This document shows, piece by piece, positions 1,893 to 23,869 of a DNA stretch of 64,000 bases. Under the pieces are notes generated by a model, which was not told where the DNA came from, made no database searches, and worked only from the letters and a program-made list of their open reading frames with translations. Where the stretch lies: positions 10,323 to 74,322 of the forward strand of contig JACPCD010000005.1 of the NCBI GenBank assembly GCA_016179955.1, written 5' to 3'. Source of the DNA: Candidatus Woesearchaeota archaeon. Its GTDB lineage: Archaea > Nanobdellota > Nanobdellia > Woesearchaeales > GW2011-AR9. The first letter of the stretch is position 1. Each line of letters opens with the position of its first letter. The position numbers and the translations under genes were made by a program.

Positions 1893-3677
1893 ATGGAAAA
1901 AAAGAAAGAAGAGTTGTCCATTCAGGGACCGGTTGGCCGGCAGAGCGAATTGCATAAAGAGGGTCCTGACCGTGCTTCCACCTCTCCCGCTAACAACAGT
2001 GAGGAGGGAGCAATATCCCGTAACTACGCTCGTTGGTCGGACCACGCCGCGGCGAAGATCTCCTCGTTTCTTAAAGATAAATATAACTTGGCATTTTTAG
2101 TGGTGTTATTTTTAGCTTTTCTGATCCGCCTGAAGTACATCGGACAGGAAAGCATCTGGAATGACGCAGCCGTGCATTTATGGTATGCGATTAAAGTAAC
2201 TCACCAGCCGCTTTTTATTTTTACTCAAGAATATCTGTTAGGTGATTATGCTACGGTTCAAACCTTAACCGCTTTTTTGTATTTGTTCACTAAGAATGTG
2301 TTGCTGGCAGGGCAAATCGTCGCTATGTTTTATGCGATTATCGGAATCATATTCATGTATCTTTTAGGAACTGAAATACGCAGCCGATTTACGGGATTGA
2401 TGGCGGCAACCTTATTAGCGTTTAATCATCTTTTTTGGTTTTACAGTGCTCGTCCGTTGGGAGATTCGCCACTTCTAGTTACTACCATTGTCCTTCTGTA
2501 TTGTATGGTCAGGTTGGAAAAAGAGAAAACTCTCCGCTGGGGGATACTCAGTGGGGTTATGTTTTTAGCAGCCATGTTTACAAAGCAACAATCTGTTCTT
2601 TACATCTTCGCCTTAGTGATTTATGTGCTTTTGTTTAGACGAAAGGAAATGTTCAAAAATAAGGCCTTGCTCGCCTCTTGGCTCATTCCCGTGGTTTCCA
2701 TACTTATTGCCCATGTTGTTGGAAAAATTTTCTTTCATGCAAAAGTTTTAGATCGGATCTTCAAACTATTCTTTGATTTGCGGGGTCTGCCATTTGGATT
2801 CGAAGCAGCCGGCATGCTGCAATGGATATTTTCGTGGTACCTGATTCCTTTTGTTATTATCGGGGCTTTGCTGGTCATTTTCTACCGAGAGAAAAAGTAC
2901 TATTTTGGACTGACCCTTTTTGCATTTTATTATCTGTTCTTTGAGGTAAATGTTGATAATACCCAAGATCGCTATGTTCTCCCGTTGTTTTCCATCGCCA
3001 TACTCTTGGCAGTCTTCGCCTTGGAAGAAATAAGCACTTACATCTCCATGTTTATCCATAAGTTTGCCAAACCAATTATCGTCATTGTCGTAGTCATTTT
3101 CATTAGCTGGAATTATTATCAGGTAGGCGATGCTCTCAATTATAATAAATCTTTTAGTTATTTGGGCTATCAGGAAGCGGGGCAATGGATGAAAGAGAAT
3201 GTTCCTGCCAAAGATCCCATCTTTGTCGGTGAGTATCGCTCGATACGTGCTTTCTCCGAGAGAGAATTTGGTGGCCCTATGCTGGAAGATTACGGCGGTA
3301 ATATCATTAATCTGCGCTCACCATACCGCTACAGCACCGAAGGGGTCAAACCCAAAGAGGAAGAGCAGAGAAACTTTGAAGAAGATATTTTGGTCTTATC
3401 GCAAAGTCGTGATATCTATCTTGAAATTGACATCTGGGAATACGCCCAGCCGACCTGGTACTGGCCCTTATCGCAGGCAAGCCTGGATTATTTCGTAAGC
3501 CTCGGGTTTTATCCCGTCAAGATAATCGAACGGCCGGTGTTGACCAAGGATGGGCCAAAAACCATTCCAGTCATCTTTATTTTAAAGAAAGACCGTACCG
3601 GAACAACGGCCAATGGTTCTCTCCTACAGACAGCAGTTAATGATGAAACACAATGGCGGCAAAAGTTTCTCAATTAG
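1893..3677 (+). CDS. GT-C fold membrane glycosyltransferase (GT39/ArnT/PMT-like)
   Basis: 594 aa. Hydrophilic ~60-aa N-terminus, then more than 10 hydrophobic helices. Acidic first-loop motif (ESIWNDAAVH). Soluble C-terminal ~150 aa. Confidence 0.65.
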   Translation: MEKKKEELSIQGPVGRQSELHKEGPDRASTSPANNSEEGAISRNYARWSDHAAAKISSFLKDKYNLAFLVVLFLAFLIRLKYIGQESIWNDAAVHLWYAIKVTHQPLFIFTQEYLLGDYATVQTLTAFLYLFTKNVLLAGQIVAMFYAIIGIIFMYLLGTEIRSRFTGLMAATLLAFNHLFWFYSARPLGDSPLLVTTIVLLYCMVRLEKEKTLRWGILSGVMFLAAMFTKQQSVLYIFALVIYVLLFRRKEMFKNKALLASWLIPVVSILIAHVVGKIFFHAKVLDRIFKLFFDLRGLPFGFEAAGMLQWIFSWYLIPFVIIGALLVIFYREKKYYFGLTLFAFYYLFFEVNVDNTQDRYVLPLFSIAILLAVFALEEISTYISMFIHKFAKPIIVIVVVIFISWNYYQVGDALNYNKSFSYLGYQEAGQWMKENVPAKDPIFVGEYRSIRAFSEREFGGPMLEDYGGNIINLRSPYRYSTEGVKPKEEEQRNFEEDILVLSQSRDIYLEIDIWEYAQPTWYWPLSQASLDYFVSLGFYPVKIIERPVLTKDGPKTIPVIFILKKDRTGTTANGSLLQTAVNDETQWRQKFLN

Positions 3678-4573
3678 CCACGATCCAAGTCGATCTGGAC
3701 GGGTTATGGACCAATCTGCAGTATTATGGGCATGACGCGCCCGTAAGCCCCGATATCGTATTTACGTCGGGATTGCGCCGTTATCTGGATCTCTTTGAGG
3801 AATTAGGCATAAAAGCAACTTTTTTTGTGATCGGGAAAGATGTTGGCATTCCGGAAAAAAAAGTCTTGCTTCAGGAAGCTCATGAAAAAGGGCATGAATT
3901 GGCCAATCATACATTTACACACCCCTTTGGTTTCCGCAAATTATCAGCATCGCAACAACAGGCCGAGATTGAGCAAGGGGAAAGAGCTATAGGTTCCATT
4001 ACCGGCAAAAAGCCACGTGGATTCAAAGCGCCAGGGTATGATGTTGACACCAAAATATTATCCTTACTTGCAGAAAAAGGGTATCTTTATGATTCCTCTG
4101 TTATCCCCACCCCGGCATATCCTCTTTTAATGAAAATAAATAGTATTCTCACCCGCAGTGTCTCTCGAAACCATGGCCCGCGGTGGAGTTGGGGAATGGC
4201 TCCCAATGCACCCTATCATCCTTCGTCAAAAAAGGTCTGGAGGAAGGGAAATAATCCACTCTTGGAATTGCCGTGTACCACCTTTCCCGTACTACGAATC
4301 CCTATCCATGCCACCTTTGCCGTAAAATTAGGATACCCTTTTTTCCGAGGGGCATTAGAAGTCGTAAAGAAAAGGGCTATTCCTTTAAATTATGAATTTC
4401 ATGCTGCCGACCTGTCTGACACTATCATCGACTCACGTCTGGGGCACCTGCAAGGGATCCCAATAGAAAAAAGAATGGCTTTAGTACGAAAGATGTTAGC
4501 AGCTATCTCCACCAATTATGAGCTTCGGACTTCTATTGAGTTGGCTCAGGAGTTTATCACCCATGGCCATTGA
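3653..4573 (+). CDS. Polysaccharide deacetylase (CE4 / NodB-homology)
   Basis: KATFFVIGKDV and ELANHTFTHP motifs (NodB metal/catalytic motifs). Directly upstream of a FemAB-like gene, as in EPS loci. Confidence 0.85.
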   Translation: MAAKVSQLATIQVDLDGLWTNLQYYGHDAPVSPDIVFTSGLRRYLDLFEELGIKATFFVIGKDVGIPEKKVLLQEAHEKGHELANHTFTHPFGFRKLSASQQQAEIEQGERAIGSITGKKPRGFKAPGYDVDTKILSLLAEKGYLYDSSVIPTPAYPLLMKINSILTRSVSRNHGPRWSWGMAPNAPYHPSSKKVWRKGNNPLLELPCTTFPVLRIPIHATFAVKLGYPFFRGALEVVKKRAIPLNYEFHAADLSDTIIDSRLGHLQGIPIEKRMALVRKMLAAISTNYELRTSIELAQEFITHGH

Positions 4574-5615
4574 ACTATTAACTCCACACACTGAATCGGA
4601 ATATGCAAGGTACGTCGAGCATCATCCTCGTGGAACTATAGAATTTTTAGTAGGATGGCGAGACTTATTGCAAACAAATTTTAAGTTTAAACCAGTCTAC
4701 CTCATACGAAAAAATTCTAAAGAAGTTATTGATGGAGTTCTTCCTTTGTCTTTAGCAAAGAGTATTTTTGGTACGCGGCTTGTATCCCTGCCCTATGCAG
4801 TTTCAGCAGGTGTATTGGCTGATTCTGAAGAAGCACTCAAAGAATTAGTATCTTTTGCCGAAGAGTTGGCCCGAACTGAAAAAGTCGATTTTATAGAGAT
4901 TCGTGAATCTGAAAAAGCAACACTTTATCCGGCATCTTTTCGTTGCTCCCAAAGCGTCTTCTCTTTTTCTTTAGCCTTAAGTCCAGATGTTGATGCGGTC
5001 TGGAAAAAACTTCCTAAAGGGAGCGTCCGCTGGGGTATAAAGAAAGCGGAAAAAAGCGGATTAACCCAGAGGCATGGAAACTCCAAAGAATACCTCGATG
5101 ATTTTTATCAGCTCTTCCTGCAAACCAGGAAATATCGTGGCGTTCCAGCCTACCCCTATTCTTATTTAAAAGGGATCATGGACTTATTTAGTGATAAAGC
5201 CCGTATTTACATCGCTGATTATAACCAAAAACCGGTTGCCGGGATACTTTTATTATATTATAAACAGGAAGTGCGTTACGCTTTTGCTGGTGCGATACCC
5301 CATCCTAAAATATTGCAGTTGCAGCCGTACCATTTACTCTTATGGCCGGCAGTTAAAGATGCTTGTGAGCGCGGATATACTGTGTTTAATTTTGGGGGCG
5401 CAGCCCTTACCACCAATGACGGGGGATTATATGAATTTAAGAAGAAATGGGCTGATAAAATCACCCCTATAGAATCTTATGTTTATACTCCTAAAAAAAA
5501 ATACGTGCCCCCGTCAGAAAGCCCGTTATTTAAGATGGCTGGAAAGCTATGGCAACATCTTCCTATTCCCATAGTTAAAGCAGTTAGCCCTTATGTTATT
5601 CGTCAGTTCGTTTAA
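4563..5615 (+). CDS. FemAB-family (GNAT-fold) aminoacyl/peptidyl transferase-like protein, paralog 1
   Basis: FNFGGAALTTNDGGLYEFKKKWA and C-terminal ...SPYVIRQFV are shared with paralogs at 13753 and 59548. The track start at 4518 overlaps the deacetylase by 55 nt; ATG 4563 (MAIELL...) overlaps by only 11 nt. Confidence 0.75.
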   Translation: MAIELLTPHTESEYARYVEHHPRGTIEFLVGWRDLLQTNFKFKPVYLIRKNSKEVIDGVLPLSLAKSIFGTRLVSLPYAVSAGVLADSEEALKELVSFAEELARTEKVDFIEIRESEKATLYPASFRCSQSVFSFSLALSPDVDAVWKKLPKGSVRWGIKKAEKSGLTQRHGNSKEYLDDFYQLFLQTRKYRGVPAYPYSYLKGIMDLFSDKARIYIADYNQKPVAGILLLYYKQEVRYAFAGAIPHPKILQLQPYHLLLWPAVKDACERGYTVFNFGGAALTTNDGGLYEFKKKWADKITPIESYVYTPKKKYVPPSESPLFKMAGKLWQHLPIPIVKAVSPYVIRQFV

Positions 5616-10555: not shown

Positions 10556-10561
10556 TATATA

Positions 10562-13752: not shown

Positions 13753-14802
13753 ATGGAAAATTATAAAATCTCTTTTCTGCAAGAGCAAGATTATGGTAAA
13801 TATGCTTCTTTCCTCAAAGAATGTCCCGAAGCATTATACGAACACGACCTCGCAATTAAAGACTTAGTTGCTAAACACTTTAAATTTAAACCAAGCTATT
13901 TAATTGCGAAAGAAAACGAAAAGATAGCTGGGGTTCTGCCCATCTTTGAAGCTAAAAGTATCCTGGAAGGAACCCGGTTTGTTTCCATTCCTTTTTTCCC
14001 TTTCGGCGGGGTTATTGGCAAGGATATTGACTGCAAAAGGCAGTTGCTGGATAAAGCGAAAGAGCTGGCAGCCAATGCTAAATTCCTCCAGATACGGCAG
14101 CGTGAAGAGCTTCTCCCGGAGTTAGTTCAAGAGATGGTGGTGCAGAAGCCCATCACCAATTTTTTTATTGATCTTAAAAAAGGAGAACCAGAAATGTTTG
14201 CTTCCCTGGATAAAAGCATCCGCTATGACATACGAAAAGCCCAGAAACACCATCTTCCTGTCGTTATTGGCACTACCCCTTTACTTCTGAATGATTTTTA
14301 TACCGTATACTTAAATACGCGGAAGAAGCGGGGAGTTCCTGCCTGGCCGTACGGCTTATTTCAACAGGCCTTGCAGAACTGCAACACAAAAGTCGCAGTA
14401 ACCTATCATCAACAAAAACCAATTGCGGCCAGTTTCCTGTTTATGGATAAAGAAACTATCGAATACGCCTTTGCCGGGACCGATTATCGTTACTCCTGGA
14501 TGTGTCCCTACTATCTTTTAATCTGGGAAATCATTCGTTTTGGTATTCGCAACAATTACAAGACTTTAGAGCTTGGTGGTTCTACCAGAGAGATGAATGA
14601 TGGAAATATGTACCTGTTCAAAGACCAGTGGGCCACCCGAAAAGCGGAGATTCCGTATTACTTCTATGCTGCTGATCCTCAAAATATTCCTTCCCTGCAC
14701 CGTTCCTTTGCTCTCTACCGTTGGTATGGCCGTTTTTGGCGTTTGCTTCCCACGGCAGTGATTAAAAGAATAAGCCCATTCATTATACGCCAGTTTGTGT
14801 AA
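13753..14802 (+). CDS. FemAB-family transferase-like protein, paralog 2
   Basis: Same architecture and C-terminus (...SPFIIRQFV) as the 4563 gene. LELGGSTREMNDGNMYLFKDQWA core. Confidence 0.75.
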   Translation: MENYKISFLQEQDYGKYASFLKECPEALYEHDLAIKDLVAKHFKFKPSYLIAKENEKIAGVLPIFEAKSILEGTRFVSIPFFPFGGVIGKDIDCKRQLLDKAKELAANAKFLQIRQREELLPELVQEMVVQKPITNFFIDLKKGEPEMFASLDKSIRYDIRKAQKHHLPVVIGTTPLLLNDFYTVYLNTRKKRGVPAWPYGLFQQALQNCNTKVAVTYHQQKPIAASFLFMDKETIEYAFAGTDYRYSWMCPYYLLIWEIIRFGIRNNYKTLELGGSTREMNDGNMYLFKDQWATRKAEIPYYFYAADPQNIPSLHRSFALYRWYGRFWRLLPTAVIKRISPFIIRQFV

Positions 14803-14841
14803 CCTCAAACATATAAACTAATACGAAAAAATTAAACCCCC

Positions 14842-15882
14842 ATGAACACCATCCATCGACGACTGGAACGAACCTTGGCTGCCTTTTCCGGGGTCAAGAA
14901 TGCAGTTCTTTTCAGCTCCTGCCGCAATGCTCTGTATACTTTACTTTTAAGTTTACAACTAAAGCCGGGAGATGAAGTAATCATTCAGTCATTCATTTGC
15001 GACAGCCTGACTCAGGCCATCCGTAAAGCTGGAGGGGCCGTTGTTTTTGCGGAAGTGGAACCATCCACACTCAACCTCCATCCACGAGAGATCCAACGAA
15101 AGATAACCCCTCAAACGAAAGCAGTTGTTTTTGTCCACACCTATGGAAATACATCAAATATAAATCAAGTCCAATCTTTATGCCGGAAGAAAAATATTAT
15201 CCTTATTGAAGACATCGCTCATGCTCTTGGTGCTACTTACCGAGGGAAACCCGCCGGTAGTTTTGGTGACTATGCCATTTATAGTTTTACCAAACAGATG
15301 ATCAATGTTGGCGGGGGTGCTCTGCTCAGCAATAAAGACCTTTCTCTCGTGCGTCGATTGCGTGACCAACCGAAAGCTAAAGCAAATTTTTTAGATTATG
15401 GTAAGCGGTTATTTGCCTCCCTATACGAAACCAGGGCTTTCTGGCTCTCCAAACTGATGATTGACTCGGTACGTTCCCGTCAAGATTTAAAGCTTGTTAA
15501 TGCTCTTTCCCCTCACTTCACCTGCAGTACGCTCGAAGCATATCTTGCCTTGCGACAGCTGAAATCCCTCTCACTGCTGATACGTAAGCGGCAGCGGAAT
15601 TATGAGTACCTCGCCAGATTCGTTAAAACTCAACAAGTTGTGAAAAAAGCAAGTTCCAGTTATAATTATCTTTCTTTTCTCTTTCCTAATAGCATCACCA
15701 GAGATCGTGCCTTACAAAAAAACTTTCTTTTTCTCCCCCCCTGGCCCGGAGCGGAAGTTTCCAGCACCCTGTTGTTTGTACCCAACAACCCTTTCTTTTC
15801 CAAGAAAAAGCTTCGTTTGTTAGTGCAGTCATACAATAAAGTTTATAAGCACCCGGCTGCGGGGACTATTCATGGAAAATAA
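14842..15882 (+). CDS. DegT/DnrJ/EryC1-family PLP enzyme (short, divergent), paralog A
   Basis: IEDIAHALGATYRGKPAGSFGDYAIYSFTKQMINVGGG, including the candidate Schiff-base Lys. Paralog of the 57775 gene. Confidence 0.65.
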   Translation: MNTIHRRLERTLAAFSGVKNAVLFSSCRNALYTLLLSLQLKPGDEVIIQSFICDSLTQAIRKAGGAVVFAEVEPSTLNLHPREIQRKITPQTKAVVFVHTYGNTSNINQVQSLCRKKNIILIEDIAHALGATYRGKPAGSFGDYAIYSFTKQMINVGGGALLSNKDLSLVRRLRDQPKAKANFLDYGKRLFASLYETRAFWLSKLMIDSVRSRQDLKLVNALSPHFTCSTLEAYLALRQLKSLSLLIRKRQRNYEYLARFVKTQQVVKKASSSYNYLSFLFPNSITRDRALQKNFLFLPPWPGAEVSSTLLFVPNNPFFSKKKLRLLVQSYNKVYKHPAAGTIHGK

Positions 15883-16225
15883 TACCAAAGCGATTCTGCT
15901 GGCGTTGATCTGCACCGCCATCGTGTCCGTGGCGCAGATATTCCTCAAACAAGGCAGCGACGCATTTTCTCTTTCTTTGGACCAGATCTATAATTACCCG
16001 TTGCTGGCGGGAGTTGTTCTCTATTTTGCCGGGGCGGTCGTTTTAATCTATGCCTTTCGCCTGGGAGAACTTTCAGTTGTCTACCCTGTTATGGCATCAA
16101 GTTACGTGATTGTAACCATTTTATCCAGCATCTATCTGCAGGAGCCCATCATCCCCCAGAAATGGATTGGCATCAGTTTAATCACTTTGGGCGTCATTAT
16201 CATCGGCCGGGGAGGGAAATCATGA
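15872..16225 (+). CDS. Small 4-TM EamA/SMR-like protein (ArnE/ArnF-like flippase subunit candidate)
   Basis: 117 aa with four hydrophobic helices. Paired with a second small subunit via an ATGA overlap. Confidence 0.6.
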   Translation: MENNTKAILLALICTAIVSVAQIFLKQGSDAFSLSLDQIYNYPLLAGVVLYFAGAVVLIYAFRLGELSVVYPVMASSYVIVTILSSIYLQEPIIPQKWIGISLITLGVIIIGRGGKS

Positions 16226-16557
16226 ATCTTCCGTTGGCCGTAACTTTTATTTTTGTGTCTTCCATCTTTGGCGCCTTTAGTACGCTGCTGTTCAAGATGG
16301 GCTCTCTTTTACGCATTAATCTCAAAAATAAAAAAATGATAGGGGCAGTGCTCCTGGCGGGGGTTTCTTTCTTTTTTTATCTCCGTGCCCTGCAGCAAGC
16401 TCCCCTGACATTCATTTACCTTACTGCGTCCATTAGTTATATTTGGGCTATCGTCCTTGCCCGGCTGGTACTTCACGAACGTATAACTAAGTATAAAATT
16501 ATAGGTATAAGTTTGATTTGCCTCGGTATTATCTCACTTTATGTACCCTGGTCGTAG
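16222..16557 (+). CDS. Small 4-TM EamA/SMR-like protein, second subunit
   Basis: Start moved to ATG 16222 (MNLPLAVTF...): ATGA overlap with the upstream stop, and GGGAGGG 5 nt upstream. The track start at 16162 adds a non-hydrophobic His-rich leader in the overlap. Confidence 0.6.
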   Translation: MNLPLAVTFIFVSSIFGAFSTLLFKMGSLLRINLKNKKMIGAVLLAGVSFFFYLRALQQAPLTFIYLTASISYIWAIVLARLVLHERITKYKIIGISLICLGIISLYVPWS

Positions 16558-16584
16558 AATTTAAAGAACGACATACTTATCACT

Positions 16585-17322
16585 ATGGCAGCCAGCACCA
16601 AACTATCCCTCATTGTTCCCTGTTATAACGAAGAGCGTGGCATTCAGAATCTCTATCATCAGCTTGCGCCCGTACTCGATAAATTAGAAAAGGAATATTC
16701 CCTTGAAGTTATTTTCGTAGACGATGGGAGCAAGGATCAGACCGTTGCGCTTCTCCAGCAATTCTTTAGCGGGAAAAAGTATGTTCAAATTGTCCGCCAT
16801 GAGGTAAACAAAAACTTGGGCGCTGCCGTCCGCACCGGTTTTGCTCATGCAACCGGTGACATCATCATCACCATGGATAGCGATTGCACCTACGATCCGC
16901 AGGGCATTTTTCCCATGCTCCAGCTTTTGGACCGTGGTACTTCGATCGTGACTGCTTCTCCTTACCATCCTTTAGGCGGCATCCGAAATGTGCCGAAGTA
17001 CCGCCTATTTTTAAGCAAGTCTATTACGGGCATCTATCGTTTCCTGACTGGGGCAAAAATCTACACTTTTACCGCCCTGTTCCGGGCGCAGCGGAAAGAA
17101 GTGGTGCAGAACATCCTTTTTAAGTCTAATGATTTTCTGGCCACCGCCGAAATTCTAGTTTCCGCTCTAAACCAAGGCCATCATGTAAAAGAATACCCCA
17201 TGGTCCTCAGCGTACGGGAGTTTGGTGAGTCCAAGATGAAACTATTGAATGTCATTTGGAGCCATCTTAAATTTGCGACGAGTTTAGTTCCCCAAAGAAT
17301 AAAAAGGGGTTTAAAGCCATAG
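16585..17322 (+). CDS. GT2 polyprenyl-phosphate glycosyltransferase (DPM1/ArnC-like)
   Basis: LSLIVPCYNEE...FVDDGSKDQT...MDSDCTYDP (GT-A DxD region). 245 aa, soluble type. Confidence 0.75.
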   Translation: MAASTKLSLIVPCYNEERGIQNLYHQLAPVLDKLEKEYSLEVIFVDDGSKDQTVALLQQFFSGKKYVQIVRHEVNKNLGAAVRTGFAHATGDIIITMDSDCTYDPQGIFPMLQLLDRGTSIVTASPYHPLGGIRNVPKYRLFLSKSITGIYRFLTGAKIYTFTALFRAQRKEVVQNILFKSNDFLATAEILVSALNQGHHVKEYPMVLSVREFGESKMKLLNVIWSHLKFATSLVPQRIKRGLKP

Positions 17323-17328
17323 TTTCTA

Positions 17329-18438
17329 ATGAATTCACTGAAGATATGCACTGTTCTGGGCACCCGGCCGGAAATTACCAAATTGTCTCCCTTACTCCCG
17401 CTGCTCGATCAGGAATTTAACCATTGTATCATTCATACCGGCCAGCATTATGATTATGCCCTGGATGGTGTTTTCTTCAAAGAATTACATCTGCCAGCTC
17501 CCCAATACCAACTAAACATCGGTTCTCATTCCCAGGGAAAGCAAACCGGACGAATGCTTGAAAAGATAGAAGAAGTATTAGTGCAAGAGCAGCCAGGATT
17601 AGTCATCGTTGAAGGCGATACAAATACTACTATGGCCGGCGCGTTAGCCGCTGCTAAATTACATATTCCCGTCATGCACGTGGAATCCGGCTGCCGTTCC
17701 TTTAACCGAAAAATGCCGGAAGAGATTAATCGCATCGTGGCTGATCATAGCGCGGAGTATCTCATTGCTCCGGATGAGGATAGTGTCAAAAATCTGCAGC
17801 AGGAAGGGATTCCTTCTCAAAAAGTTTTTTTGTTGGGCAGTACCGTTTTTGATGCCGTGGAACGAACCAAGACCTTCATTCAGCCGGAACACGTTTTGAG
17901 CCAATGGGGATTGTCGAAAAATGGATTTATTCTGGTGACCCTGCATCGTGCCGAGACGACTGACAATATGGAAGTTATTACAAATATTGTCCAGGCATTA
18001 AATACCCTCGCCTTGAATATTCCCATTGTCTTTCCCATCCATCCGCGGACCCGAAAGACCATTACGGAAAATGCCATTACTTTCAATAACAATATTCTTT
18101 CCATTGATCCCCAACCCTATTTGTCATTCCTGGCCTTGCTTTCTGCCTGCCGATTTTGCATAACTGATAGTGGGGGTATCCAAGAAGAAGCATTGGCTTT
18201 CAATGTTCCTTGCTTAATCCCCAGAACCGAGACTGAATGGGTGCGCTTAGTTCGTGCCGGTAAGAACTTGTTGGTTGGTGTTAAAACTGAGGGCATACTC
18301 TCAGCCGCCAGAAAAATTATTGAGGATGAAACTGAACTACGGAAAATTAAAGAAACACGCTATCCTTACGATATCGGCACCAGTAAAAAAATAATAGAGC
18401 TTATACAAACCATTGACCATGATCCATCCCACCGCTGA
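17329..18438 (+). CDS. wecB: UDP-N-acetylglucosamine 2-epimerase (non-hydrolysing family)
   Basis: [42 protein letters not shown] motifs. Confidence 0.85.
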
Positions 18439-18964
18439 CGTTTCTCCTGCTGCCATTATAGGGCTGAATGTGCGTATTTGGCACCAGGCGCAGGTACGGG
18501 AAGGCGCCGTTATCGGAGATAACTGTATTGTAGCCAAAGGCGCCTATATCGATAAGAACGTGATGATGGGGGATAACTGCAAGATTCAGAATTATTCTTC
18601 TTTGTATCATGGTGTGGTGCTCGAGCGGGGCGTTTTTATCGGTCCGCATTGCGTTTTAACCAATGATAAGCATCCCCGAGCTATAACGTCAGATGGTTCT
18701 TTAAAACAAGAAACGGATTGGAAAGAAGGAAAGATTCTGGTTCGGGAAGGGGCATCTCTTGGCGCGAGAGTAGTCGTGCTCCCGGGCATCACCATCGGGA
18801 GATTCGCTATGGTGGGCGCTGGTTCTGTCGTTACCAAATACGTTCCTGATTTTGGGCTAGTGTATGGCAATCCAGCGAGGTTGCAAGGGTATGTATGCAA
18901 ATGCGGCCAGAAGTTAGACGCTGGAAAAAATGCCGGAGAAGCATGTATTCAATGCTCCCGTTAA
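18413..18964 (+). CDS. Left-handed beta-helix (hexapeptide) N-acetyltransferase, WbpD/WlbB-like, with a C-terminal Cys4 ribbon
   Basis: Hexapeptide repeats throughout. C-terminal CKCGQKL...CIQC. Confidence 0.7.
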
Positions 18965-18980
18965 CCTTAGGGACAATGAG

Positions 18981-19988: not shown

Positions 19989-20010
19989 CGTATTCTGCCA
20001 ACGGGGCTAT

Positions 20011-20082: not shown

Positions 20083-20106
20083 TCAATTTTATGCTTTTTG
20101 TCCTGC

Positions 20107-21186
20107 ATGATTCCTATTGCCAAACCTCTTCTGGGGGCGGAAGAACAGGCGGCAGTGCTCCACGTGTTAAACTCAGGCATGCTGGCTCAAGGCCAAAAAG
20201 TCGCGGAATTCGAGCAGGCCTTTGCTCAATTCATTGGCGTACGCCATGCTATCGCCACGTCCAATGGCACTACGGCGTTGCATGCTGCTGTACTGGCTCA
20301 CGGCATCGGTCCGGGAGATGAAGTCATAACCACCCCTTTTACTTTTATTGCTACTGCCAATGCCATTAAAATGGCTGGCGCTACTCCGGTCTTTGTGGAT
20401 ATTGATGAGGATACTTTCAACCTCAACGCTTCTCTTATTGAAGCGGCCATTACTTCCAAAACTAAAGCCATTCTTCCCGTCCACTTGTTTGGACTGCCAG
20501 CGGAGATGGACAAGCTCCAGTCGATAGCTCGAAAGCATAACATAGTCATAATTGAAGATGCCGCTCAGGCGCATGGCGCAGAATTTCAAGGAAAAAAAGT
20601 GGGTTCGTTTGCAACTGGCTGTTTTTCATTCTATCCTACCAAGAACATGACCACCGGAGAAGGGGGCATGATTACAACTAACGATAATCAATTGGCGGAA
20701 AGATTACGCAAAATAATTAACCACGGCTCAACCCAAAAATATGTTCATGATTCTGTTGGCTATAATTATCGTATGACTGATATTGCGGCCGCTATTGGGA
20801 TAGAACAATTAAAGAAACTAGAATCATTCAACCAAAAACGACGGGCGAACGTGCGCTATCTCCACCAGAAACTTGCTTCCATACCTGGAATAATCTTCCC
20901 TAGTCTTACTGAGGGGCATGTTTTCCACCAATACACCATTAGAGTAACGCCAAAATTCAGAGTGTCACGAGATATCTTTCTCAAATCTTTGGTGGAGAAA
21001 GGCATTGGCTGTTCTATTTTTTATCCCATACCAATCCATAAGCAGAAAGCATATGTCCCGTACGGGTCTTCTACGTACCCCGTCGCGGAAAGAATGGCGC
21101 AGGAAGTACTCTCGCTCCCTATCCACCCCACCGTTTCGGAAACGGATTTGGATACCATTGCTGCTGCTATCCGGGGGCTGGCATGA
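20107..21186 (+). CDS. DegT-family sugar aminotransferase (WbpE-like)
   Basis: MIPIAKPLLGAEE..., SNGTTALH, and FSFYPTKNMTTGEGG with the Lys. The track start at 20098 is a TTG; ATG 20107 fits the leaderless geometry. Confidence 0.85.
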   Translation: MIPIAKPLLGAEEQAAVLHVLNSGMLAQGQKVAEFEQAFAQFIGVRHAIATSNGTTALHAAVLAHGIGPGDEVITTPFTFIATANAIKMAGATPVFVDIDEDTFNLNASLIEAAITSKTKAILPVHLFGLPAEMDKLQSIARKHNIVIIEDAAQAHGAEFQGKKVGSFATGCFSFYPTKNMTTGEGGMITTNDNQLAERLRKIINHGSTQKYVHDSVGYNYRMTDIAAAIGIEQLKKLESFNQKRRANVRYLHQKLASIPGIIFPSLTEGHVFHQYTIRVTPKFRVSRDIFLKSLVEKGIGCSIFYPIPIHKQKAYVPYGSSTYPVAERMAQEVLSLPIHPTVSETDLDTIAAAIRGLA

Positions 21187-22163
21187 CCAGAGTGGCAGTC
21201 ATCGGCTTGGGAAATATGGGCAAGCATCATGCCCGGAATTATTTTGAGATGGAAACAGCAGAATTGATTGCCGTCTGCGACGTAAACCAGGAGCTGGCCA
21301 ATACCGCTGCTAAGAGATTTTCATGCAAGGCGTACCATGACTATAAAGATCTGCTGAAGAATGAGCAGATTGACGCCGTAAGTATCGCTGTTCCCACCCA
21401 TCTTCACCAGGAAGTAGCTTTATATTTTCTGGGGCAAAAGATTGATGTGCTTATTGAAAAACCGATTGCCGCCACCATTCAGGATGCCGAAGCGATAATC
21501 CGTGCCGCTCAAGAAAACAACTGCATCCTGCAAGTGGGCCATGTGGAACGGTTTAATCCTGCCGTCAAAAAGTTAAAAGAAATAATTCAGCAGGGAAAAT
21601 TGGGAGAGGTAACTTCTATCATTGCCCGCCGGGTAGGAACGGTTCCAGTTCAAGTCCGGGACGCCAACGTTCTTATCGATCTGGCAGTCCACGATATTGA
21701 CATCATTAATTATCTCTACGGCTCCAGCGCAGAGAAAATCATGGGGAATATTGGAAAGGCCATGATCGAGAAACGGGAAGATTATGCCGAAATTTTCCTC
21801 AAATATGGCAATCGTTCCGGCTTTATTCAAGTCAACTGGATTACACCTATAAAGATTCGTAATCTTAGCGTCACGGGCAGCAAAGGCTATGCGGAACTGA
21901 ATTATATTACGCAGGAATTAGTCATTTATGAAAGCAATTACACCCGGGAGATGGTTGATGAGTATGGCGATTATGTGGTGAAGTTTGGCCTTCCGAACAA
22001 AACTCAGGTGGGAGTTGAGACTGTTGAGCCCCTTTTAATCGAGCTACAGGACTTTGTGCGCTGCGTGAAAAAGAGAGAACAGCCTTTAGTAAACGGGGAG
22101 ATGGGGTTACAGGCCCTCTCTGTTGCCTTGCAGGTGATGCGTCAGGATTCTGTTATTCAATAA
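21183..22163 (+). CDS. Gfo/Idh/MocA NAD-dependent sugar oxidoreductase (WbpB-like)
   Basis: VAVIGLGNMGKHH Rossmann motif and the EKP motif. ATGA overlap with the aminotransferase gene. Confidence 0.8.
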   Translation: MTRVAVIGLGNMGKHHARNYFEMETAELIAVCDVNQELANTAAKRFSCKAYHDYKDLLKNEQIDAVSIAVPTHLHQEVALYFLGQKIDVLIEKPIAATIQDAEAIIRAAQENNCILQVGHVERFNPAVKKLKEIIQQGKLGEVTSIIARRVGTVPVQVRDANVLIDLAVHDIDIINYLYGSSAEKIMGNIGKAMIEKREDYAEIFLKYGNRSGFIQVNWITPIKIRNLSVTGSKGYAELNYITQELVIYESNYTREMVDEYGDYVVKFGLPNKTQVGVETVEPLLIELQDFVRCVKKREQPLVNGEMGLQALSVALQVMRQDSVIQ

Positions 22164-22171: not shown

Positions 22172-23869
22172 ATGGAAAAGAAAACTATATTCTTGATTAT
22201 CTTTGCCATTTTCATCTTTGGGATCCGCCTGGCAAATATCAACGAGGCTCTTTATGATGATGAAGCTAATTTTGCGTATTCACTGACGGTGATGGATAAA
22301 TGGGGTTTCAATCATGATTACCCGTCCCCACAGCCACTTAACTTGATTTATAAGCCATTTATTGCTGTATTTGGGCTGGAAACGTGGGTTTTTCGTATAG
22401 TTCCCTGGCTGTTTGGGATAATCAATACGCTCTTAGTCTATTTTTTTGCGCGAAGGCATTGGGACGAAAAAGTTGCTTTTTGGGCAACTCTTCTGATGTT
22501 AGTCTCATTTTATCCCACGCTGGCATCGCTGCAGTTTGATGTAGAGGGTAATTTAGTCATGTTTTCGATTATCCTATTCATTTTTTCGTACTTGGAATAT
22601 AAAAAGAATATCGAGAATAAGAAACGCCTTTTTTGGCAGATAATTTCTGGAATTGGGTTGGGGCTGGCTGTCGCAACAAAGTACAATTCTTTTTTTCTGG
22701 CCGCCGTTCCCGCTTTATATTCCTTTTTTATGGATAGTGACAGGTTTCTCCTGCGACTAAAAAAAGCCATAAAAGATATCTATTTTATCTATTTTATTGG
22801 TTTAATCATTTTTATAGGAATTACATTTATGGGCTTCATCGCCTCCCCGGAAAAGTGGCTTTACTTTGTACCAATTATTTCTTGGGCAGATGGATTTGGG
22901 ACCGACTATCGGCCGCAATCCATTGGTCTTTTAGGCCCCATGTTATTTTTTTTATGGTCAACGCCATTGCTCTTTGGTTTTTATATTTTATCCTTCTTTC
23001 AGGAGCGGAAGAAAATTCTACTCCCACTTATTTGGGTTACTCTCACCCTCTTATTTTATACTTTTGGCATGACCTATGGTTCGATGGATCGTTATTTTAT
23101 GCATACCATTCCGGCTCTGGTGATTCTTGGTGGATACTTTTTATCAAAAATTTCTTTTCAGCGCAAAGAGATTGCTGTTTGGTCGTTCCTTATAATAATC
23201 TGGACCACCTTTCTCTTTCTGGTCAATTCTTTACCTTCAAAATCACTTGCCCGTTTTCCCTCCATTTATTTTGAAGAGATTAAACATAGGAATATAAACT
23301 TCTTGTTCTCCTATACTTCTGCCTCCGGCCCTACTTTCGGAGTCAATTTTGCAACTGTCTTTGTAACTTCAGTAATTGCTCTTCTGTGTATTTTTTTCTA
23401 TATTTTAGCAGTTGAAAAAATGACTTCCCGGGCTTTCATTTTAATATTCTTCCTGGCCACCTTGTCTTTTAATATTTTCCTGGTCTCCGAATACCTATTC
23501 CACCCTACCGGCGCTGATATTAGCGGAGTGAAGTTAGAAATGGTTCAATATGTCAAAGAGCAGGAATTAAAAAAACCAATTTATACTAATGATGAAGGAA
23601 TCCAATGGTATTTTGATCATTGGTATAAAAATAAAAATAATCTCACCCTCGGTTTTGGGGATAATGAGCTTGAGGATGTGCCAATCGTACTTAAAGATAG
23701 CATTGCCAACCAAGGAGGTACGATTATTTTAGTTCGTTGGCCACCCCTTCCATCCGGAAGTACAGCTTTAAAAGTGATCAAGCTCTGTACGTTGCAGAAA
23801 CAGTTTTATTCAAATAGGGAAACTTTTGGAGAAATTTACCTATGTCAGCCGGATTATCGGATAATTTAA
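22172..23869 (+). CDS. GT-C fold membrane glycosyltransferase (ArnT/GT39/GT83-like), second copy
   Basis: 565 aa, polytopic. First-loop acidic motif EALYDDEANFAY. Soluble C-terminal domain. Confidence 0.65.
   Translation: MEKKTIFLIIFAIFIFGIRLANINEALYDDEANFAYSLTVMDKWGFNHDYPSPQPLNLIYKPFIAVFGLETWVFRIVPWLFGIINTLLVYFFARRHWDEKVAFWATLLMLVSFYPTLASLQFDVEGNLVMFSIILFIFSYLEYKKNIENKKRLFWQIISGIGLGLAVATKYNSFFLAAVPALYSFFMDSDRFLLRLKKAIKDIYFIYFIGLIIFIGITFMGFIASPEKWLYFVPIISWADGFGTDYRPQSIGLLGPMLFFLWSTPLLFGFYILSFFQERKKILLPLIWVTLTLLFYTFGMTYGSMDRYFMHTIPALVILGGYFLSKISFQRKEIAVWSFLIIIWTTFLFLVNSLPSKSLARFPSIYFEEIKHRNINFLFSYTSASGPTFGVNFATVFVTSVIALLCIFFYILAVEKMTSRAFILIFFLATLSFNIFLVSEYLFHPTGADISGVKLEMVQYVKEQELKKPIYTNDEGIQWYFDHWYKNKNNLTLGFGDNELEDVPIVLKDSIANQGGTIILVRWPPLPSGSTALKVIKLCTLQKQFYSNRETFGEIYLCQPDYRII

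What the first reader, a model, noticed from the sequence alone, without database searches (positions are those of the whole stretch)
13753..17322. Duplicated Arn-like lipid-carrier amino-sugar module coupled to FemAB-like transferases
Seen in sequence: two modules share the same parts.
- Module A (13753-17322): FemAB-like, short DegT-like PLP enzyme, two translationally coupled ~115-aa 4-TM EamA/SMR-like proteins, then a GT2 polyprenyl-P glycosyltransferase.
- Module B (57775-60588): DegT-like paralog, two small 4-TM proteins, FemAB-like. A deacetylase, AsnB and a GT2 follow on the opposite strand.

Established knowledge: ArnB (DegT-type), ArnC (GT2), ArnD (CE4-type), ArnE/F (paired small SMR-like flippase subunits) and ArnT (GT-C) together build, flip and transfer an undecaprenyl-P-linked amino sugar. 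Three GT-C enzymes are also present in this window.

Inference: each module makes a polyprenyl-P-linked amino sugar, flips it, and transfers it outside the cell. The FemAB-like enzyme may acylate or aminoacylate the free amine, since Fem enzymes use aminoacyl-tRNA. I do not know of a characterised Arn-like pathway coupled to a FemAB-type step.
Basis: inference. Interest (0 to 1): 0.7.

Follow-up and report, generated by a model that had tools for sequence, protein, structure and literature searches.

The report
Archaeal aminoacyl-sugar modules with lipid-carrier delivery
A tiny symbiotic archaeon (Woesearchaeota) carries two old copies of a conserved gene set that probably attaches an amino acid to an amino sugar and passes it across the membrane on a lipid carrier, combining two bacterial-type pathways in a way not yet described or tested.

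Summary
Both modules are at the stated coordinates with the stated parts, and the small membrane genes overlap their neighbours.

Four points change the picture:
- **Organism.** The window comes from a DPANN archaeon (Candidatus Woesearchaeota), so the carrier would be dolichyl phosphate.
- **Extent of module A.** In relatives the unit reads GT-C, CE4, Fem, Fem, short DegT, EamA, EamA, GT2, then archaeal UDP-GlcNAc3NAc genes and a second GT-C. Here a methylphosphonate-synthesis block splits the Fem pair.
- **Linkage.** The short DegT-like enzymes form two DPANN-centred families.
  - DegA sits next to an EamA pair in 11 of 11 informative loci and upstream of GT2 in 10 of 10.
  - DegB has a Fem gene nearby in 20 of 20 loci, but an EamA pair in only 8 of 20.
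  - DegT–EamA fusion proteins occur in both families.
- **Precedent.** Fem, CE4 and AsnB best match the families containing VimA, VimE and WbpS. These act in the bacterial Wbp/Vim pathway, which makes N-seryl or N-glycyl diamino sugars.

The Fem fold and its catalytic lysine are confirmed. No Arn-specific model reaches its cut-off.

My verdict is a new variant of known kinds: Wbp/Vim-type chemistry joined to Arn/Gtr-type carrier delivery. The substrate of the DegT-like enzyme is unresolved.

The parts
1893..3677 (+). GT-C glycosyltransferase (PMT_2 type), left end of the full module A
   Evidence: Pfam PF13231 scores 50.2 bits. A GT-C sits at the same position in L001, L003, L005, L092, L093, L095 and L096.
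3653..4573 (+). CE4 de-N-acetylase (VimE/ArnD-like role) of module A
   Evidence: Pfam PF01522 scores 76.8 bits. Best NCBIfam hit is TIGR03006 at 67.8 bits, below its cut-off. A CE4 lies within 6 kb in 8 of 12 DegA loci.
4518..5615 (+). Fem-like transferase, orthologue of the first gene of the conserved Fem-Fem pair (likely start 4563)
   Evidence: PF02388 scores 65.5 bits and TIGR03019 scores 199.8 bits. It is 46-58% identical to the first Fem of L001, L003, L093 and L095 (36% in L005), against 32-37% to the second in all five.
13753..14802 (+). Fem-like transferase, orthologue of the second gene of the Fem-Fem pair
   Evidence: PF13480 and PF02388 both hit. TIGR03019 scores 149.9 bits. The AF2 model has pLDDT 94 and its top Foldseek hits are FemX_Wv at TM 0.70-0.76. 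Invariant K290 aligns with FemX K305.
14842..15882 (+). Short divergent DegT-like PLP enzyme (DegA family)
   Evidence: PF01041 scores 168 bits over profile positions 27-259 of 360. K151 and the E123-D124 motif are invariant. The model has a sugar-aminotransferase fold at TM 0.69-0.77. It lacks the N-terminal segment and the GxNYR motif and carries an insertion.
15872..16225 (+). Small 4-TM EamA/DMT protein E1 (flippase-subunit candidate)
   Evidence: PF00892 scores 33.8 bits. ArnE scores 35.6 bits against a cut-off of 92. It has 4 TM helices and an 11-nt overlap with DegA. The E1 type is fused to the PLP domain in P0024, P0031 and P0034.
16222..16557 (+). Small 4-TM EamA/DMT protein E2
   Evidence: PF00892 scores 40.7 bits. 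It shares an ATGA overlap with E1. Loops 1 and 3 are rich in K/R.
16585..17322 (+). GT2, candidate dolichyl-phosphate sugar synthase (ArnC/DPM/PpgS-like)
   Evidence: PF00535 scores 116.8 bits. Best NCBIfam hit is ArnC at 88 bits; the Dol-P hexose transferase, PpgS and AglJ models also hit. All are below their cut-offs. A GT2 lies downstream of DegA-EamA-EamA in 10 of 10 informative loci.
17329..18438 (+). UDP-GlcNAc 2-epimerase (WbpI-like)
   Evidence: PF02350 scores 349 bits. It is syntenic in 9 of 12 DegA loci.
18413..18964 (+). Hexapeptide N-acetyltransferase (WbpD-like)
   Evidence: PF00132 scores 88 bits. It is syntenic in relatives.
20098..21186 (+). Canonical full-length DegT aminotransferase (WbpE-like)
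   Evidence: PF01041 scores 448 bits over profile positions 3-360. It has the GYNYRM motif.
21183..22163 (+). GFO/IDH/MocA oxidoreductase, UDP-GlcNAc 3-dehydrogenase-like (WbpB-like)
   Evidence: NCBIfam NF040723 scores 359.9 bits against a cut-off of 450.
22172..23869 (+). Second GT-C (PMT/PMT_2), right end of module A
   Evidence: PF02366 scores 45.5 bits and PF13231 scores 45.3 bits. The position is the same in L003/L096 and L093.
53532..55367 (-). Polytopic membrane protein with a DUF6798 domain, GT-C-like candidate near module B
   Evidence: PF20604 scores 45.2 bits. It has 11 or more hydrophobic segments. It is found near DegB in only 2 of 20 loci.
57775..58842 (+). Divergent DegT-like PLP enzyme (DegB family)
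   Evidence: PF01041 scores 83 bits over profile positions 33-184 of 360. The family has about 115 clusters, mostly DPANN. The S-K lysine and the EDCAQALG motif are invariant. hhalign against the DegA family gives 99.9% probability through the insertion.
58835..59200 (+). Small 4-TM EamA protein E1 of module B
   Evidence: ArnE scores 37.2 bits and is the only NCBIfam hit. It has 4 TM helices and an 8-nt overlap with DegB. A fused form exists, P0185.
59193..59546 (+). Small 4-TM EamA protein E2 of module B
   Evidence: PF00892 scores 38.8 bits. ArnE scores 30.2 bits and ArnF 28.8 bits. It overlaps E1 by 8 nt.
59548..60588 (+). Fem-like transferase of module B (VimA-family-like)
   Evidence: PF13480 scores 80.4 bits and PF02388 scores 36.6 bits. 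TIGR03019 scores 187.6 bits. A Fem gene lies within 6 kb of DegB in 20 of 20 loci.
60550..61320 (-). CE4 de-N-acetylase of module B (VimE-like)
   Evidence: PF01522 scores 57 bits. Best NCBIfam hit is TIGR03006 at 74.1 bits. It is convergent with Fem in 12 of 20 loci.
61324..63234 (-). AsnB-type amidotransferase (WbpS-like)
   Evidence: PF00733 scores 343 bits. Best NCBIfam hit is TIGR03108 at 555 bits, against a cut-off of 817.
63237..64000 (-). GT2 with a C-terminal TM hairpin (runs off the window; full length 319 aa), candidate Dol-P sugar synthase
   Evidence: The full gene is in L124. Best NCBIfam hits are AglJ at 150.6 bits, PpgS at 88.1, Dol-P hexose transferase at 79.5 and ArnC at 52.8. 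It has two C-terminal TM segments. The next gene is a PF00953 transferase.

Best explanation
Each module is an archaeal (DPANN) pathway that makes an N-aminoacylated amino sugar and delivers it to the cell surface on dolichyl phosphate.

**Proposed steps**
1. Cytoplasmic enzymes make a UDP-diamino or acetamido sugar. In module A these are WbpB/E/D/I-like enzymes, equivalent to the archaeal UDP-GlcNAc3NAc route.
2. The GT2 (AglJ/ArnC/PpgS-like) loads the sugar on dolichyl phosphate.
3. The CE4 enzyme (VimE/ArnD-like) removes an N-acetyl group and frees an amine.
4. The Fem-like enzyme(s) (VimA/FemX-like) acylate a sugar amine with an amino acid, most likely taken from aminoacyl-tRNA. Module A has two in series.
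5. In module B, the AsnB/WbpS-like enzyme amidates a carboxylate.
6. The two 4-TM EamA proteins form an antiparallel heterodimer that flips the lipid-linked sugar.
7. A GT-C enzyme transfers the sugar to an acceptor outside the cell.

**The divergent DegT-like enzyme**
It is a PLP-dependent aminotransferase that supplies an extra amine for the Fem step. It works bound to the flippase subunit E1, and possibly acts on a substrate that is not nucleotide-linked.

**Shown versus inferred**
- Shown: homology, fold, conserved active-site residues, gene order, gene fusions, and distribution across loci.
- Inferred: every chemical step, the order of steps, the acyl donor, the flipping, and the acceptor.
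For: **Organism**
- The DegA and DegB proteins are 100% identical to entries from Candidatus Woesearchaeota.

**Fem proteins**
- Pfam FemAB is above its gathering score in all three.
- The full-length best NCBIfam match is TIGR03019, the family that includes VimA (PMC7468200).
- The model has pLDDT 94. The 18 best PDB fold matches are all aminoacyl-tRNA-dependent tandem-GNAT enzymes: FemX, Sbb17/Sba18 bound to an amino-sugar acceptor, FemA and MprF.
- The invariant F-K aligns with F304-K305 of FemX.

**Partner enzymes**
- The CE4 proteins best match TIGR03006, and AsnB best matches TIGR03108, the WbpS family.
- The GT2s best match polyprenyl-P or Dol-P sugar synthases.
- PMT_2-type GT-C enzymes flank module A.

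**Linkage**
- DegA is next to an EamA pair in 11 of 11 informative loci.
- DegA has a GT2 downstream in 10 of 10 informative loci.
- DegA has Fem-Fem upstream in 9 of 11 informative loci.
- DegB has a Fem nearby in 20 of 20 loci.
- An EamA gene is adjacent to only 1 of 100 other DegT genes in the same set of loci.

**Fusions and topology**
- Fusions of the form PLP domain, linker, E1 occur in both families. There are at least three separate cases (L094/L095).
- E2 has K/R-rich loops 1 and 3. E1 shows no charge bias and is fused by its N-terminus. This fits opposite orientations.

**DegA and DegB**
- Both keep the PLP lysine and the aspartate motif and the sugar-aminotransferase fold.
- Both lack the GxNYR motif present in all three canonical DegT paralogues of the window, and both share an insertion.
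- Members of this superfamily that use non-nucleotide sugars exist, namely NtdA and KdnA (10.1101/2021.09.04.459008).
Against: - There is no biochemical or glycan-structure evidence.
- All matches to ArnB, ArnC, ArnD, ArnE and ArnF, and to TIGR03019, TIGR03006 and TIGR03108, are below the curated cut-offs.
- The EamA pair is absent from 12 of 20 DegB loci. Some of those loci have a DUF2304 protein next to the GT2 instead.
- In two or three distinct loci (L097, L099/L100), DegA-EamA-EamA-GT2 occurs with no Fem gene within 10 kb.
- No enzyme can be assigned that makes the keto substrate for DegA or DegB.
- In module B a PF00953 (MraY/WecA-family) transferase always follows the GT2 (10 distinct loci plus this genome). 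GT4 enzymes and a Wzx-like flippase are also close by. The sugar could therefore enter an ordinary lipid-linked oligosaccharide.
- A GT-C is near module B in only 2 of 20 loci.
- Use of aminoacyl-tRNA by VimA-family proteins has not been demonstrated in the papers I could find.
Confidence: 0.5

Rival explanations
1. This is a purely cytoplasmic Wbp/Vim-type nucleotide-sugar pathway. DegT, Fem, CE4 and AsnB tailor a UDP-sugar. The sugar is then built into an ordinary lipid-linked oligosaccharide. That oligosaccharide is started by the PF00953 enzyme or by an AglJ/AglK-type GT2, extended by GT4 enzymes, flipped by the Wzx-like protein, and transferred by AglB. The EamA pair is an accessory with another role, and the GT-C enzymes serve other glycans.
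For: - PF00953 follows the GT2 in all DegB loci that extend far enough, and in this genome.
- STT3/AglB is in the same cluster in the complete genome CP066683.1.
- GT4 enzymes and a Wzx-like flippase adjoin module B.
- The EamA pair is missing in 12 of 20 DegB loci.
- FemX and VimA act, or are thought to act, on UDP-linked precursors.
- GT2B's best hit is AglJ, an enzyme that initiates N-glycan assembly.
Against: - DegA, the EamA pair and GT2 are invariably linked, and DegT-EamA fusions exist.
- PMT_2-type GT-C enzymes, which use polyprenyl-P-monosaccharide donors (established knowledge), bracket module A in relatives.
- Module A has no PF00953 gene.
Confidence: 0.25
2. The Fem-like enzymes are ordinary N-acyltransferases that use acyl-CoA or acyl-ACP rather than aminoacyl-tRNA. 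They would stand in for WbpD or PglD and add a simple acyl group to the amine made by the neighbouring DegT.
For: - PF13480 is annotated as a GNAT acetyltransferase domain.
- VimA was long annotated as an acetyl-CoA transferase.
- In bacterial loci, Fem sits where WbpD would be, beside GFO and DegT (L051, L057, L074, L080).
- The window also has thiolase, SDR and FabA-like genes.
Against: - The fold and sequence are closest to aminoacyl-tRNA-dependent enzymes. The first CoA-dependent tandem GNAT (VipF) ranks 19th with TM about 0.4.
- The FemX catalytic F-K motif is invariant.
- Swapping VimA between species changes the sugar substituent from Ser to Gly.
Confidence: 0.12
3. This is a phosphonate-peptide route. 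The DegT-like enzyme transaminates phosphonoacetaldehyde to an aminophosphonate. The Fem-like enzyme aminoacylates it, as DhpH-C and DhpK do in dehydrophos biosynthesis. The EamA pair exports or handles the phosphonate.
For: - A PEP-mutase block lies inside module A here.
- PEP mutase lies within 10 kb of DegB in L008/L024, L009, L014, L018 and the P0166 locus. In two of these it directly follows an extra EamA pair.
- E1A's top NCBIfam hit is a phosphonate-utilisation-associated EamA protein at 37 bits.
- DhpH/DhpK provide the precedent.
Against: - 11 of 12 DegA loci, and most DegB loci, have no PEP mutase within 6-10 kb.
- The phosphonate route in this window leads to methylphosphonate through an alcohol dehydrogenase and MPnS. 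That product has no amine.
- The steady partners are CE4, GT2, AsnB, GT-C and PF00953, all of which are glycan enzymes.
Confidence: 0.06
4. The genes are neighbours by chance within a large glycan locus and have no specific functional coupling.
For: The window is packed with glycan genes, so such families could easily lie side by side.
Against: - The same order recurs in 12 and 20 distinct loci at 33-63% protein identity.
- The genes overlap one another.
- Fusion proteins exist.
Confidence: 0.02

Closest known systems
Wbp/Vim pathway of Porphyromonas gingivalis and Tannerella forsythia (WbpA/B/E/D, VimE, VimA, WbpS), and the PEP-CTERM-associated triad TIGR03019/TIGR03006/TIGR03108
   Same: - It combines a Fem-family transferase, a CE4 deacetylase and an AsnB-type amidotransferase with WbpB/E/D/I-type genes for 2,3-diamino sugars.
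- All three window Fem proteins, both module CE4 proteins and the AsnB best match these three NCBIfam families.
- VimA sets which amino acid (Ser or Gly) is N-linked to the sugar.
   Different: - The host here is an archaeon.
- Scores are below the equivalog cut-offs.
- Extra components are present: a dedicated divergent DegT-like enzyme, a pair of 4-TM EamA proteins, a Dol-P-type GT2 and GT-C enzymes.
- Module A has two Fem genes in tandem.
- No T9SS or exosortase was seen in the window.
Arn (L-Ara4N lipid A modification) pathway, ArnB/C/A/D/T/E/F
   Same: The logic and the fold classes match part for part:
- DegT-type aminotransferase;
- N-acylation of the new amine;
- GT2 transfer to a polyprenyl phosphate;
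- CE4-type de-acylation on the lipid;
- paired small DMT/SMR-like flippase subunits;
- GT-C transfer outside the cell.

ArnE and ArnF are the best or near-best named hits for all four small proteins.
   Different: - None of the ArnB, ArnC, ArnD, ArnE or ArnF models reaches its cut-off.
- There is no ArnA.
- The N-acylating enzyme is Fem-type rather than a formyltransferase.
- The carrier would be dolichyl phosphate, and the acceptor cannot be lipid A.
Three-component polyprenyl-P-sugar glycosylation systems (GtrB/GtrA/GtrX; CsbB/GtcA/YfhO; mycobacterial PpgS/Rv3632/Rv3779)
   Same: - Each has a GT2 polyprenyl-P sugar synthase, a small membrane protein and a GT-C.
- PpgS is among the hits for both GT2s.
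- Some module-B relatives pair the GT2 with a DUF2304 protein. From my recollection, not checked here, PpgS is paired with Rv3632 in the same way.
   Different: - The small proteins here are an EamA pair, not GtrA or DUF2304.
- The sugar is further tailored by CE4, Fem and DegT enzymes.
FemX of Weissella viridescens and the natural-product Fem-like enzymes (Orf11, Sbb17/Sba18, DhpH-C, DhpK)
   Same: - They share the tandem-GNAT fold and the catalytic Lys.
- Orf11, Sbb17 and Sba18 aminoacylate an amino sugar.
- DhpH joins a PLP domain to a Fem-like domain.
   Different: - Sequence identity is only 14-17%.
- The context is cell-surface glycan genes rather than peptidoglycan or antibiotic synthesis.
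- The coiled-coil arm of FemA/FemB is absent.

Membership tests
Arn pathway (L-Ara4N) | ArnB equivalog (NF008658, cut-off 631 bits) | tested here: not met
   DegA scores 107.2 bits and DegB 45.7 bits.
Arn pathway (L-Ara4N) | ArnC equivalog (NF007986, cut-off 529 bits) | tested here: not met
   GT2A scores 88 bits, which is its best hit. GT2B scores 52.8 bits.
Arn pathway (L-Ara4N) | ArnD deformylase equivalog (NF011923, cut-off 382 bits) | tested here: not met
   The two CE4 proteins score 15.6 and 19 bits.
Arn pathway (L-Ara4N) | ArnE/ArnF equivalogs (cut-offs 92 and 99 bits) | tested here: not met
   Scores are 23-37 bits. These are still the best or near-best named families for all four small proteins.
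Arn pathway (L-Ara4N) | ArnA (UDP-GlcA decarboxylase fused to a formyltransferase) | tested here: not met
   No such domain appears in either module or anywhere in the window in the Pfam scans.
FemABX aminoacyl-tRNA-dependent transferases | Pfam PF02388 above its gathering score (24 bits) | tested here: met
   Scores are 49.6, 36.6 and 65.5 bits.
FemABX aminoacyl-tRNA-dependent transferases | Tandem-GNAT fold | tested here: met
   The model has pLDDT 94. FemX_Wv matches at TM 0.70-0.76 with E about 1e-16.
FemABX aminoacyl-tRNA-dependent transferases | Catalytic Lys (K305 of FemX_Wv) preceded by Phe | tested here: met
   K290 is invariant in 41 sequences and aligns with K305. F289 aligns with F304.
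FemABX aminoacyl-tRNA-dependent transferases | Uses aminoacyl-tRNA as donor | not testable with these tools
   This needs an enzyme assay.
Wbp/Vim pathway | VimA-type protein (TIGR03019, cut-off 260 bits) | tested here: inconclusive
   The three Fem proteins give full-length best hits of 149.9, 187.6 and 199.8 bits, all below the cut-off.
Wbp/Vim pathway | A CE4 deacetylase (VimE) linked to the Fem gene | tested here: met
   A CE4 is adjacent or convergent in both modules. A CE4 lies within 6 kb in 8 of 12 DegA loci and 12 of 20 DegB loci.
Wbp/Vim pathway | WbpS-type amidotransferase (TIGR03108, cut-off 817 bits) | tested here: inconclusive
   The best hit is 555 bits, below the cut-off. It is present in 7 of 20 DegB loci and in no DegA locus.
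Wbp/Vim pathway | WbpB/E/D(/I) genes for a 2,3-diacetamido sugar | tested here: met
   Module A has a GFO enzyme (NF040723, 360 bits), a full DegT, a hexapeptide acetyltransferase and Epimerase_2. No WbpA-type 6-dehydrogenase was seen in the window.
Three-component polyprenyl-P-sugar glycosylation | GT2 of the polyprenyl-P sugar synthase type, a small membrane protein and a GT-C in one locus | tested here: met
   The GT2 best hits are AglJ, ArnC, PpgS and Dol-P hexose transferase. An EamA pair is present. PMT_2 is above its gathering score. The match is at family level only.
DegT/DnrJ/EryC1/StrS sugar aminotransferases | PLP-binding Lys, Asp motif and overall fold | tested here: met
   K151 (DegA) and K163 (DegB) are invariant, as is the E-D motif. 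Fold matches have TM 0.69-0.77.
DegT/DnrJ/EryC1/StrS sugar aminotransferases | Full-length match including the N-terminal segment and the GxNYR(M/L) motif | tested here: not met
   The Pfam match covers only positions 27-259 or 33-184 of 360. The motif and the N-terminal segment are absent, and an insertion of about 30 aa is present.

The most novel reading that the evidence does not exclude
DegA and DegB are membrane-tethered PLP enzymes that act on a dolichyl-phosphate-linked sugar, or on its aminoacyl group. They work in a complex with an antiparallel E1/E2 heterodimer, forming a 'modify-and-flip' machine. This would also be the first identified Dol-P-sugar flippase type in archaea. E1A has a weak match to the eukaryotic TMEM234 family.

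The exported N-aminoacyl sugar would display a free alpha-amine on the cell surface. That amine could serve as the attachment or cross-linking point for surface proteins or glycan strands, as the VimA-made sugar does for T9SS cargo. Together with the MraY-family, split MurG-like (Alg13/14), Fem-like and MurJ/Wzx-like genes of the locus, this would amount to a lipid-II-like glycopeptide pathway in a DPANN archaeon.
Probability: 0.12. Interest if true: 0.85.

Novelty: new variant of a known kind. Interest (0 to 1): 0.55.

Why it matters
- **Surface chemistry of DPANN archaea.** These organisms live attached to hosts, and their surface chemistry is almost unknown. A conserved, twice-encoded route to amino-acid-bearing amino sugars would be a defining feature of that surface. 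It would also carry the VimA-type 'linking sugar' chemistry from bacteria into archaea.
- **A flippase candidate.** The tight linkage and the repeated fusion of a PLP enzyme to a small DMT protein give a concrete, testable candidate for a dolichyl-phosphate-sugar flippase. That activity has not been assigned to a protein in archaea or eukaryotes, as far as I know.
- **Fem-family function.** The result also offers a test of whether VimA-family proteins use aminoacyl-tRNA.

Tried and rejected
- **Recent duplication.** Rejected. Paralogue identity is only 21-34%, and each copy has its own orthologous family.
- **Short DegT as a truncated pseudogene.** Rejected. Family members are consistently 334-368 aa apart from the EamA fusions, the active-site residues are invariant, and the model has pLDDT 94.
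- **Generic exporters.** Rejected for the DegA family: 11 of 11 loci are linked and fusions exist. For the DegB family it is only partly rejected (8 of 20).
- **tRNA genes nearby.** None in the window. This is uninformative.
- **Literature linking Woesearchaeota and FemAB.** No papers found. A search for VimA together with tRNA found no biochemical study.
- **Hydropathy of the DegA/DegB insertion.** It is neither a TM segment nor strongly amphipathic, so I do not claim it anchors the enzyme in the membrane.
- **Context of the bacterial DegB homologue L026.** ORF calling in this high-GC DNA was too noisy to use.
- **Background from the two collection scans.** They also returned many generic DegT loci. 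I used these only as a rough background. They were selected by similarity to the queries, so they are not an unbiased control.
- **Role of the GxNYR motif.** I could not confirm from the papers available what this motif does in nucleotide binding. I report its loss as an observation only.

Full report
**1. What is in the sequence**

Module A, all on the + strand:
- Fem-like, 13753-14802.
- DegT-like, 14842-15882. It is 346 aa and matches only the first two thirds of the DegT profile.
- Two EamA proteins, 15872-16225 and 16222-16557, each with four hydrophobic segments.
- GT2, 16585-17322.

Module B:
- DegT-like, 57775-58842.
- EamA, 58835-59200 and 59193-59546.
- Fem-like, 59548-60588.
- On the minus strand, convergent with these: CE4 (60550-61320), AsnB (61324-63234) and a GT2 that runs off the window end.

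The overlaps were read from the DNA. In module A they are 11 nt and ATGA. In module B they are 8 nt and 8 nt, followed by a 1-nt gap. An independent gene call on another assembly gives the same starts. The copies are old paralogues at 21-34% identity.

**2. Organism**

DegA, DegB, FemA and FemB are each 100% identical to NCBI proteins of a Candidatus Woesearchaeota archaeon. All come from a contig of 105,057 bases. The system is therefore archaeal (DPANN). By established knowledge the lipid carrier in archaea is dolichyl phosphate, not undecaprenyl phosphate.

**3. True extent of module A**

Relatives carrying a DegA orthologue (46-59% identity) show a fixed order:

Alg13/Alg14 (opposite strand) | GT-C - CE4 - Fem - Fem - DegA - EamA - EamA - GT2 - UDP-GlcNAc 2-epimerase - (SDR) - hexapeptide acetyltransferase - full DegT - GFO oxidoreductase - GT-C

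The window has all of these, at 1893-5615 and 13753-23869. Six genes at 5670-13409 are inserted between the two Fem genes. BLAST shows that the Fem at 4518-5615 is the orthologue of the first Fem of the pair, and the Fem at 13753 is the orthologue of the second.

The inserted block encodes:
- a cytidylyltransferase-PEP mutase fusion;
- a phosphonopyruvate-decarboxylase-like TPP enzyme;
- an iron alcohol dehydrogenase;
- a radical SAM/SPASM protein;
- a CDP-alcohol phosphatidyltransferase;
- a close homologue of methylphosphonate synthase (531 bits to PDB 6b9s, against 282 bits to HEPD).

The right half of module A matches the archaeal and bacterial route to UDP-2,3-diacetamido sugars. The GFO enzyme scores 360 bits on the archaeal UDP-GlcNAc 3-dehydrogenase model.

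**4. Linkage statistics**

I annotated 123 fetched loci with HMMs built from the window proteins.

*DegA family, 12 distinct loci:*

| Neighbour | Informative loci with it |
|---|---|
| EamA directly downstream | 11 of 11 |
| GT2 after the EamA pair | 10 of 10 |
| Fem-Fem upstream | 9 of 11 |
| CE4 | 8 of 12 (all loci) |
| GT-C | 7 of 12 (all loci) |

*DegB family, 20 distinct loci:*

| Neighbour | Loci with it |
|---|---|
| Fem within 6 kb | 20 of 20 (18 adjacent, or separated only by the EamA pair) |
| EamA pair | 8 of 20 |
| CE4 | 12 of 20 |
| GT2 | 13 of 20 |
| AsnB | 7 of 20 |

- Among 100 other DegT genes in the same loci, an EamA gene is adjacent once.
- In every DegB locus that extends far enough (10 distinct loci), and in this genome just beyond the window, the GT2 is followed by a PF00953 (MraY/WecA-family) transferase.
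- In the complete genome CP066683.1, STT3/AglB is next in line.
- Both families are nearly confined to Woese-/Nanoarchaeota. Scores then drop sharply to generic DegT proteins.
- Two bacterial DegB members were found, in a Collierbacteria and a Vicinamibacterales genome.

**5. Fusions**

P0024, P0031 and P0034 (DegA family) and P0185 (DegB family) each consist of the PLP domain, a low-complexity linker and an E1-type 4-TM protein. In L094/L095 the fused gene is followed by a single E2 gene and then the GT2. The PLP enzyme and the small membrane protein therefore work together physically.

E2 proteins carry most of their K/R residues in loops 1 and 3. E1 shows no charge bias and is tethered at its N-terminus. 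This fits an antiparallel heterodimer, as in paired SMR/DMT proteins (this is an inference).

**6. The Fem-like proteins**

- All three pass the Pfam FemAB gathering score.
- Their full-length best NCBIfam match is TIGR03019, at 150-200 bits against a cut-off of 260.
- A profile of 41 homologues finds FemX in the PDB at E = 1e-15. The invariant F-K aligns with F304-K305 of FemX.
- The AlphaFold model has pLDDT 94. It matches FemX_Wv (TM 0.70-0.76), then Sbb17/Sba18 (aminoacyl-tRNA-dependent enzymes solved with the amino sugar streptothrisamine), then FemA, FemX_Sa and MprF.

**7. The DegT-like proteins**

- Both families keep the Schiff-base lysine and the E-D motif.
- The DegA model has the sugar-aminotransferase fold.
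- Compared with the three canonical DegT paralogues in the same window, DegA lacks the first 40 or so residues.
- Both families lack the GxNYR(M/L) motif. Both share an insertion of about 30 residues just before that position.
- The superfamily does include enzymes for sugars that are not nucleotide-linked, namely NtdA and KdnA. KdnA is among the best sequence hits for DegA.
- I could not identify the substrate.

**8. Relation to known systems**

The key comparison is the Wbp/Vim pathway (PMC7468200).
- In P. gingivalis and T. forsythia, WbpA/B/E/D make a 2,3-diacetamido uronic acid.
- VimE (CE4) is proposed to remove the 2-N-acetyl group.
- VimA, which matches TIGR03019, adds Ser or Gly. Swapping VimA between the species swaps the amino acid.
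- WbpS (AsnB-type, TIGR03108 family) makes the uronamide.

The window's Fem, CE4 and AsnB proteins best match exactly these three families, and module A carries the Wbp-type genes. In bacterial loci fetched here, Fem-like genes again sit beside GFO + DegT + epimerase, with or without AsnB and CE4.

The Fem step on an amino sugar therefore has precedent. The additions are:
- the dedicated divergent DegT;
- the EamA pair;
- the Dol-P-type GT2 (best hits AglJ, ArnC, PpgS and Dol-P hexose transferase);
- the GT-C enzymes.

Together these follow the logic of Arn and of the Gtr/PpgS-type three-component systems. No Arn-specific model reaches its cut-off, and ArnA is absent.

**9. Mechanism and rivals**

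The best-supported reading is the Dol-P-linked, N-aminoacylated amino-sugar route given under Best explanation (confidence about 0.5).

The rivals are:
- The main rival (0.25) is that the tailored sugar stays on UDP and enters an ordinary lipid-linked oligosaccharide through PF00953, GT4, Wzx and AglB.
- The Fem donor could be acyl-CoA (0.12).
- A phosphonate-peptide route is suggested by the recurrent PEP-mutase neighbourhood and the DhpH/DhpK precedent. Most loci lack PEP mutase nearby, and the local phosphonate route ends in methylphosphonate, which has no amine (0.06).

**10. Verdict**

- This is a new variant that joins two known kinds of system, in a lineage whose surface glycans are unstudied.
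- The DegT-EamA coupling is its most unusual feature.

Noticed in passing
window 5670-13409 (MPnS homologue at 10632-11999, minus strand): This is a methylphosphonate-synthesis block in a Woesearchaeote. It contains a CT-PEP mutase fusion, a Ppd-like TPP enzyme, an Fe-ADH, a radical SAM/SPASM protein, a CDP-alcohol phosphatidyltransferase, and a 455-aa protein. That protein scores 531 bits to methylphosphonate synthase (6b9s) against 282 bits to HEPD. It keeps H148, Q152, H190, F162 and I184 in 6b9s numbering. The roles I attach to these residues are from my recollection, not checked here. The block is inserted between the two Fem genes of module A.
   Followed up: partly
L008/L024, L009, L014, L018, and the P0166 locus: PEP mutase recurs within 10 kb of DegB-Fem modules in other DPANN genomes. 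In two cases it lies directly after an extra pair of small EamA genes. This hints at a link between these small membrane proteins and phosphonate decoration.
   Followed up: partly
L101-L121 (metagenome contigs): A third DegT-like family, 31-36% identical to the N-terminal half of DegA, has a Fem-like gene directly downstream in about 14 of 21 loci. The DegT-Fem gene pair is therefore more widespread than the two families in this window.
   Followed up: no
L020 (Collierbacteria) and L026 (Vicinamibacterales chromosome OZ251506.1): Full-length DegB-family members (37-41% identity) with a Fem gene nearby occur in a CPR bacterium and in an acidobacterium. This suggests transfer between domains.
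   Followed up: no
L009, L011, L013, L014, L018, L019, L023, L028: Several contigs with DPANN-type DegB modules carry record titles naming an 'uncultured Methanosarcinales archaeon'. The labels look doubtful, given that their closest relatives are Woese-/Nanoarchaeota.
   Followed up: no
window 15872-16225: E1A has a sub-threshold Pfam match to TMEM234 (26.8 bits against a cut-off of 30.1). TMEM234 is a eukaryotic 4-TM family.
   Followed up: no
window 18981-19988 (minus strand): A 335-aa hydrophilic protein with no Pfam or NCBIfam match lies inside module A, between the hexapeptide acetyltransferase and the canonical DegT. Unannotated minus-strand genes occupy similar positions in L005.
   Followed up: no
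window 23936-36694: A second sugar-tailoring region contains NeuB, two CMP-type cytidylyltransferases, a 4,6-dehydratase with a DegT (nonulosonic-acid-like set), and thiolase, SDR, FabA-like and hexapeptide genes. The latter group could supply an unusual N-acyl group.
   Followed up: no
window 49944-51902: A B12-binding radical SAM enzyme lies beside a small PterinBD-DUF4346 protein. The same radical SAM gene flanks the Wzx-like flippase in L001 and L124.
   Followed up: no
window 886-1820, and L124 2-1177 (just beyond the window end): The locus contains split MurG-like Alg13/Alg14 genes, an MraY/WecA-family PF00953 transferase, Fem-like transferases and a MurJ/Wzx-like flippase. This set resembles the lipid II enzyme set, although no Mur-type peptide ligase was seen.
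   Followed up: no
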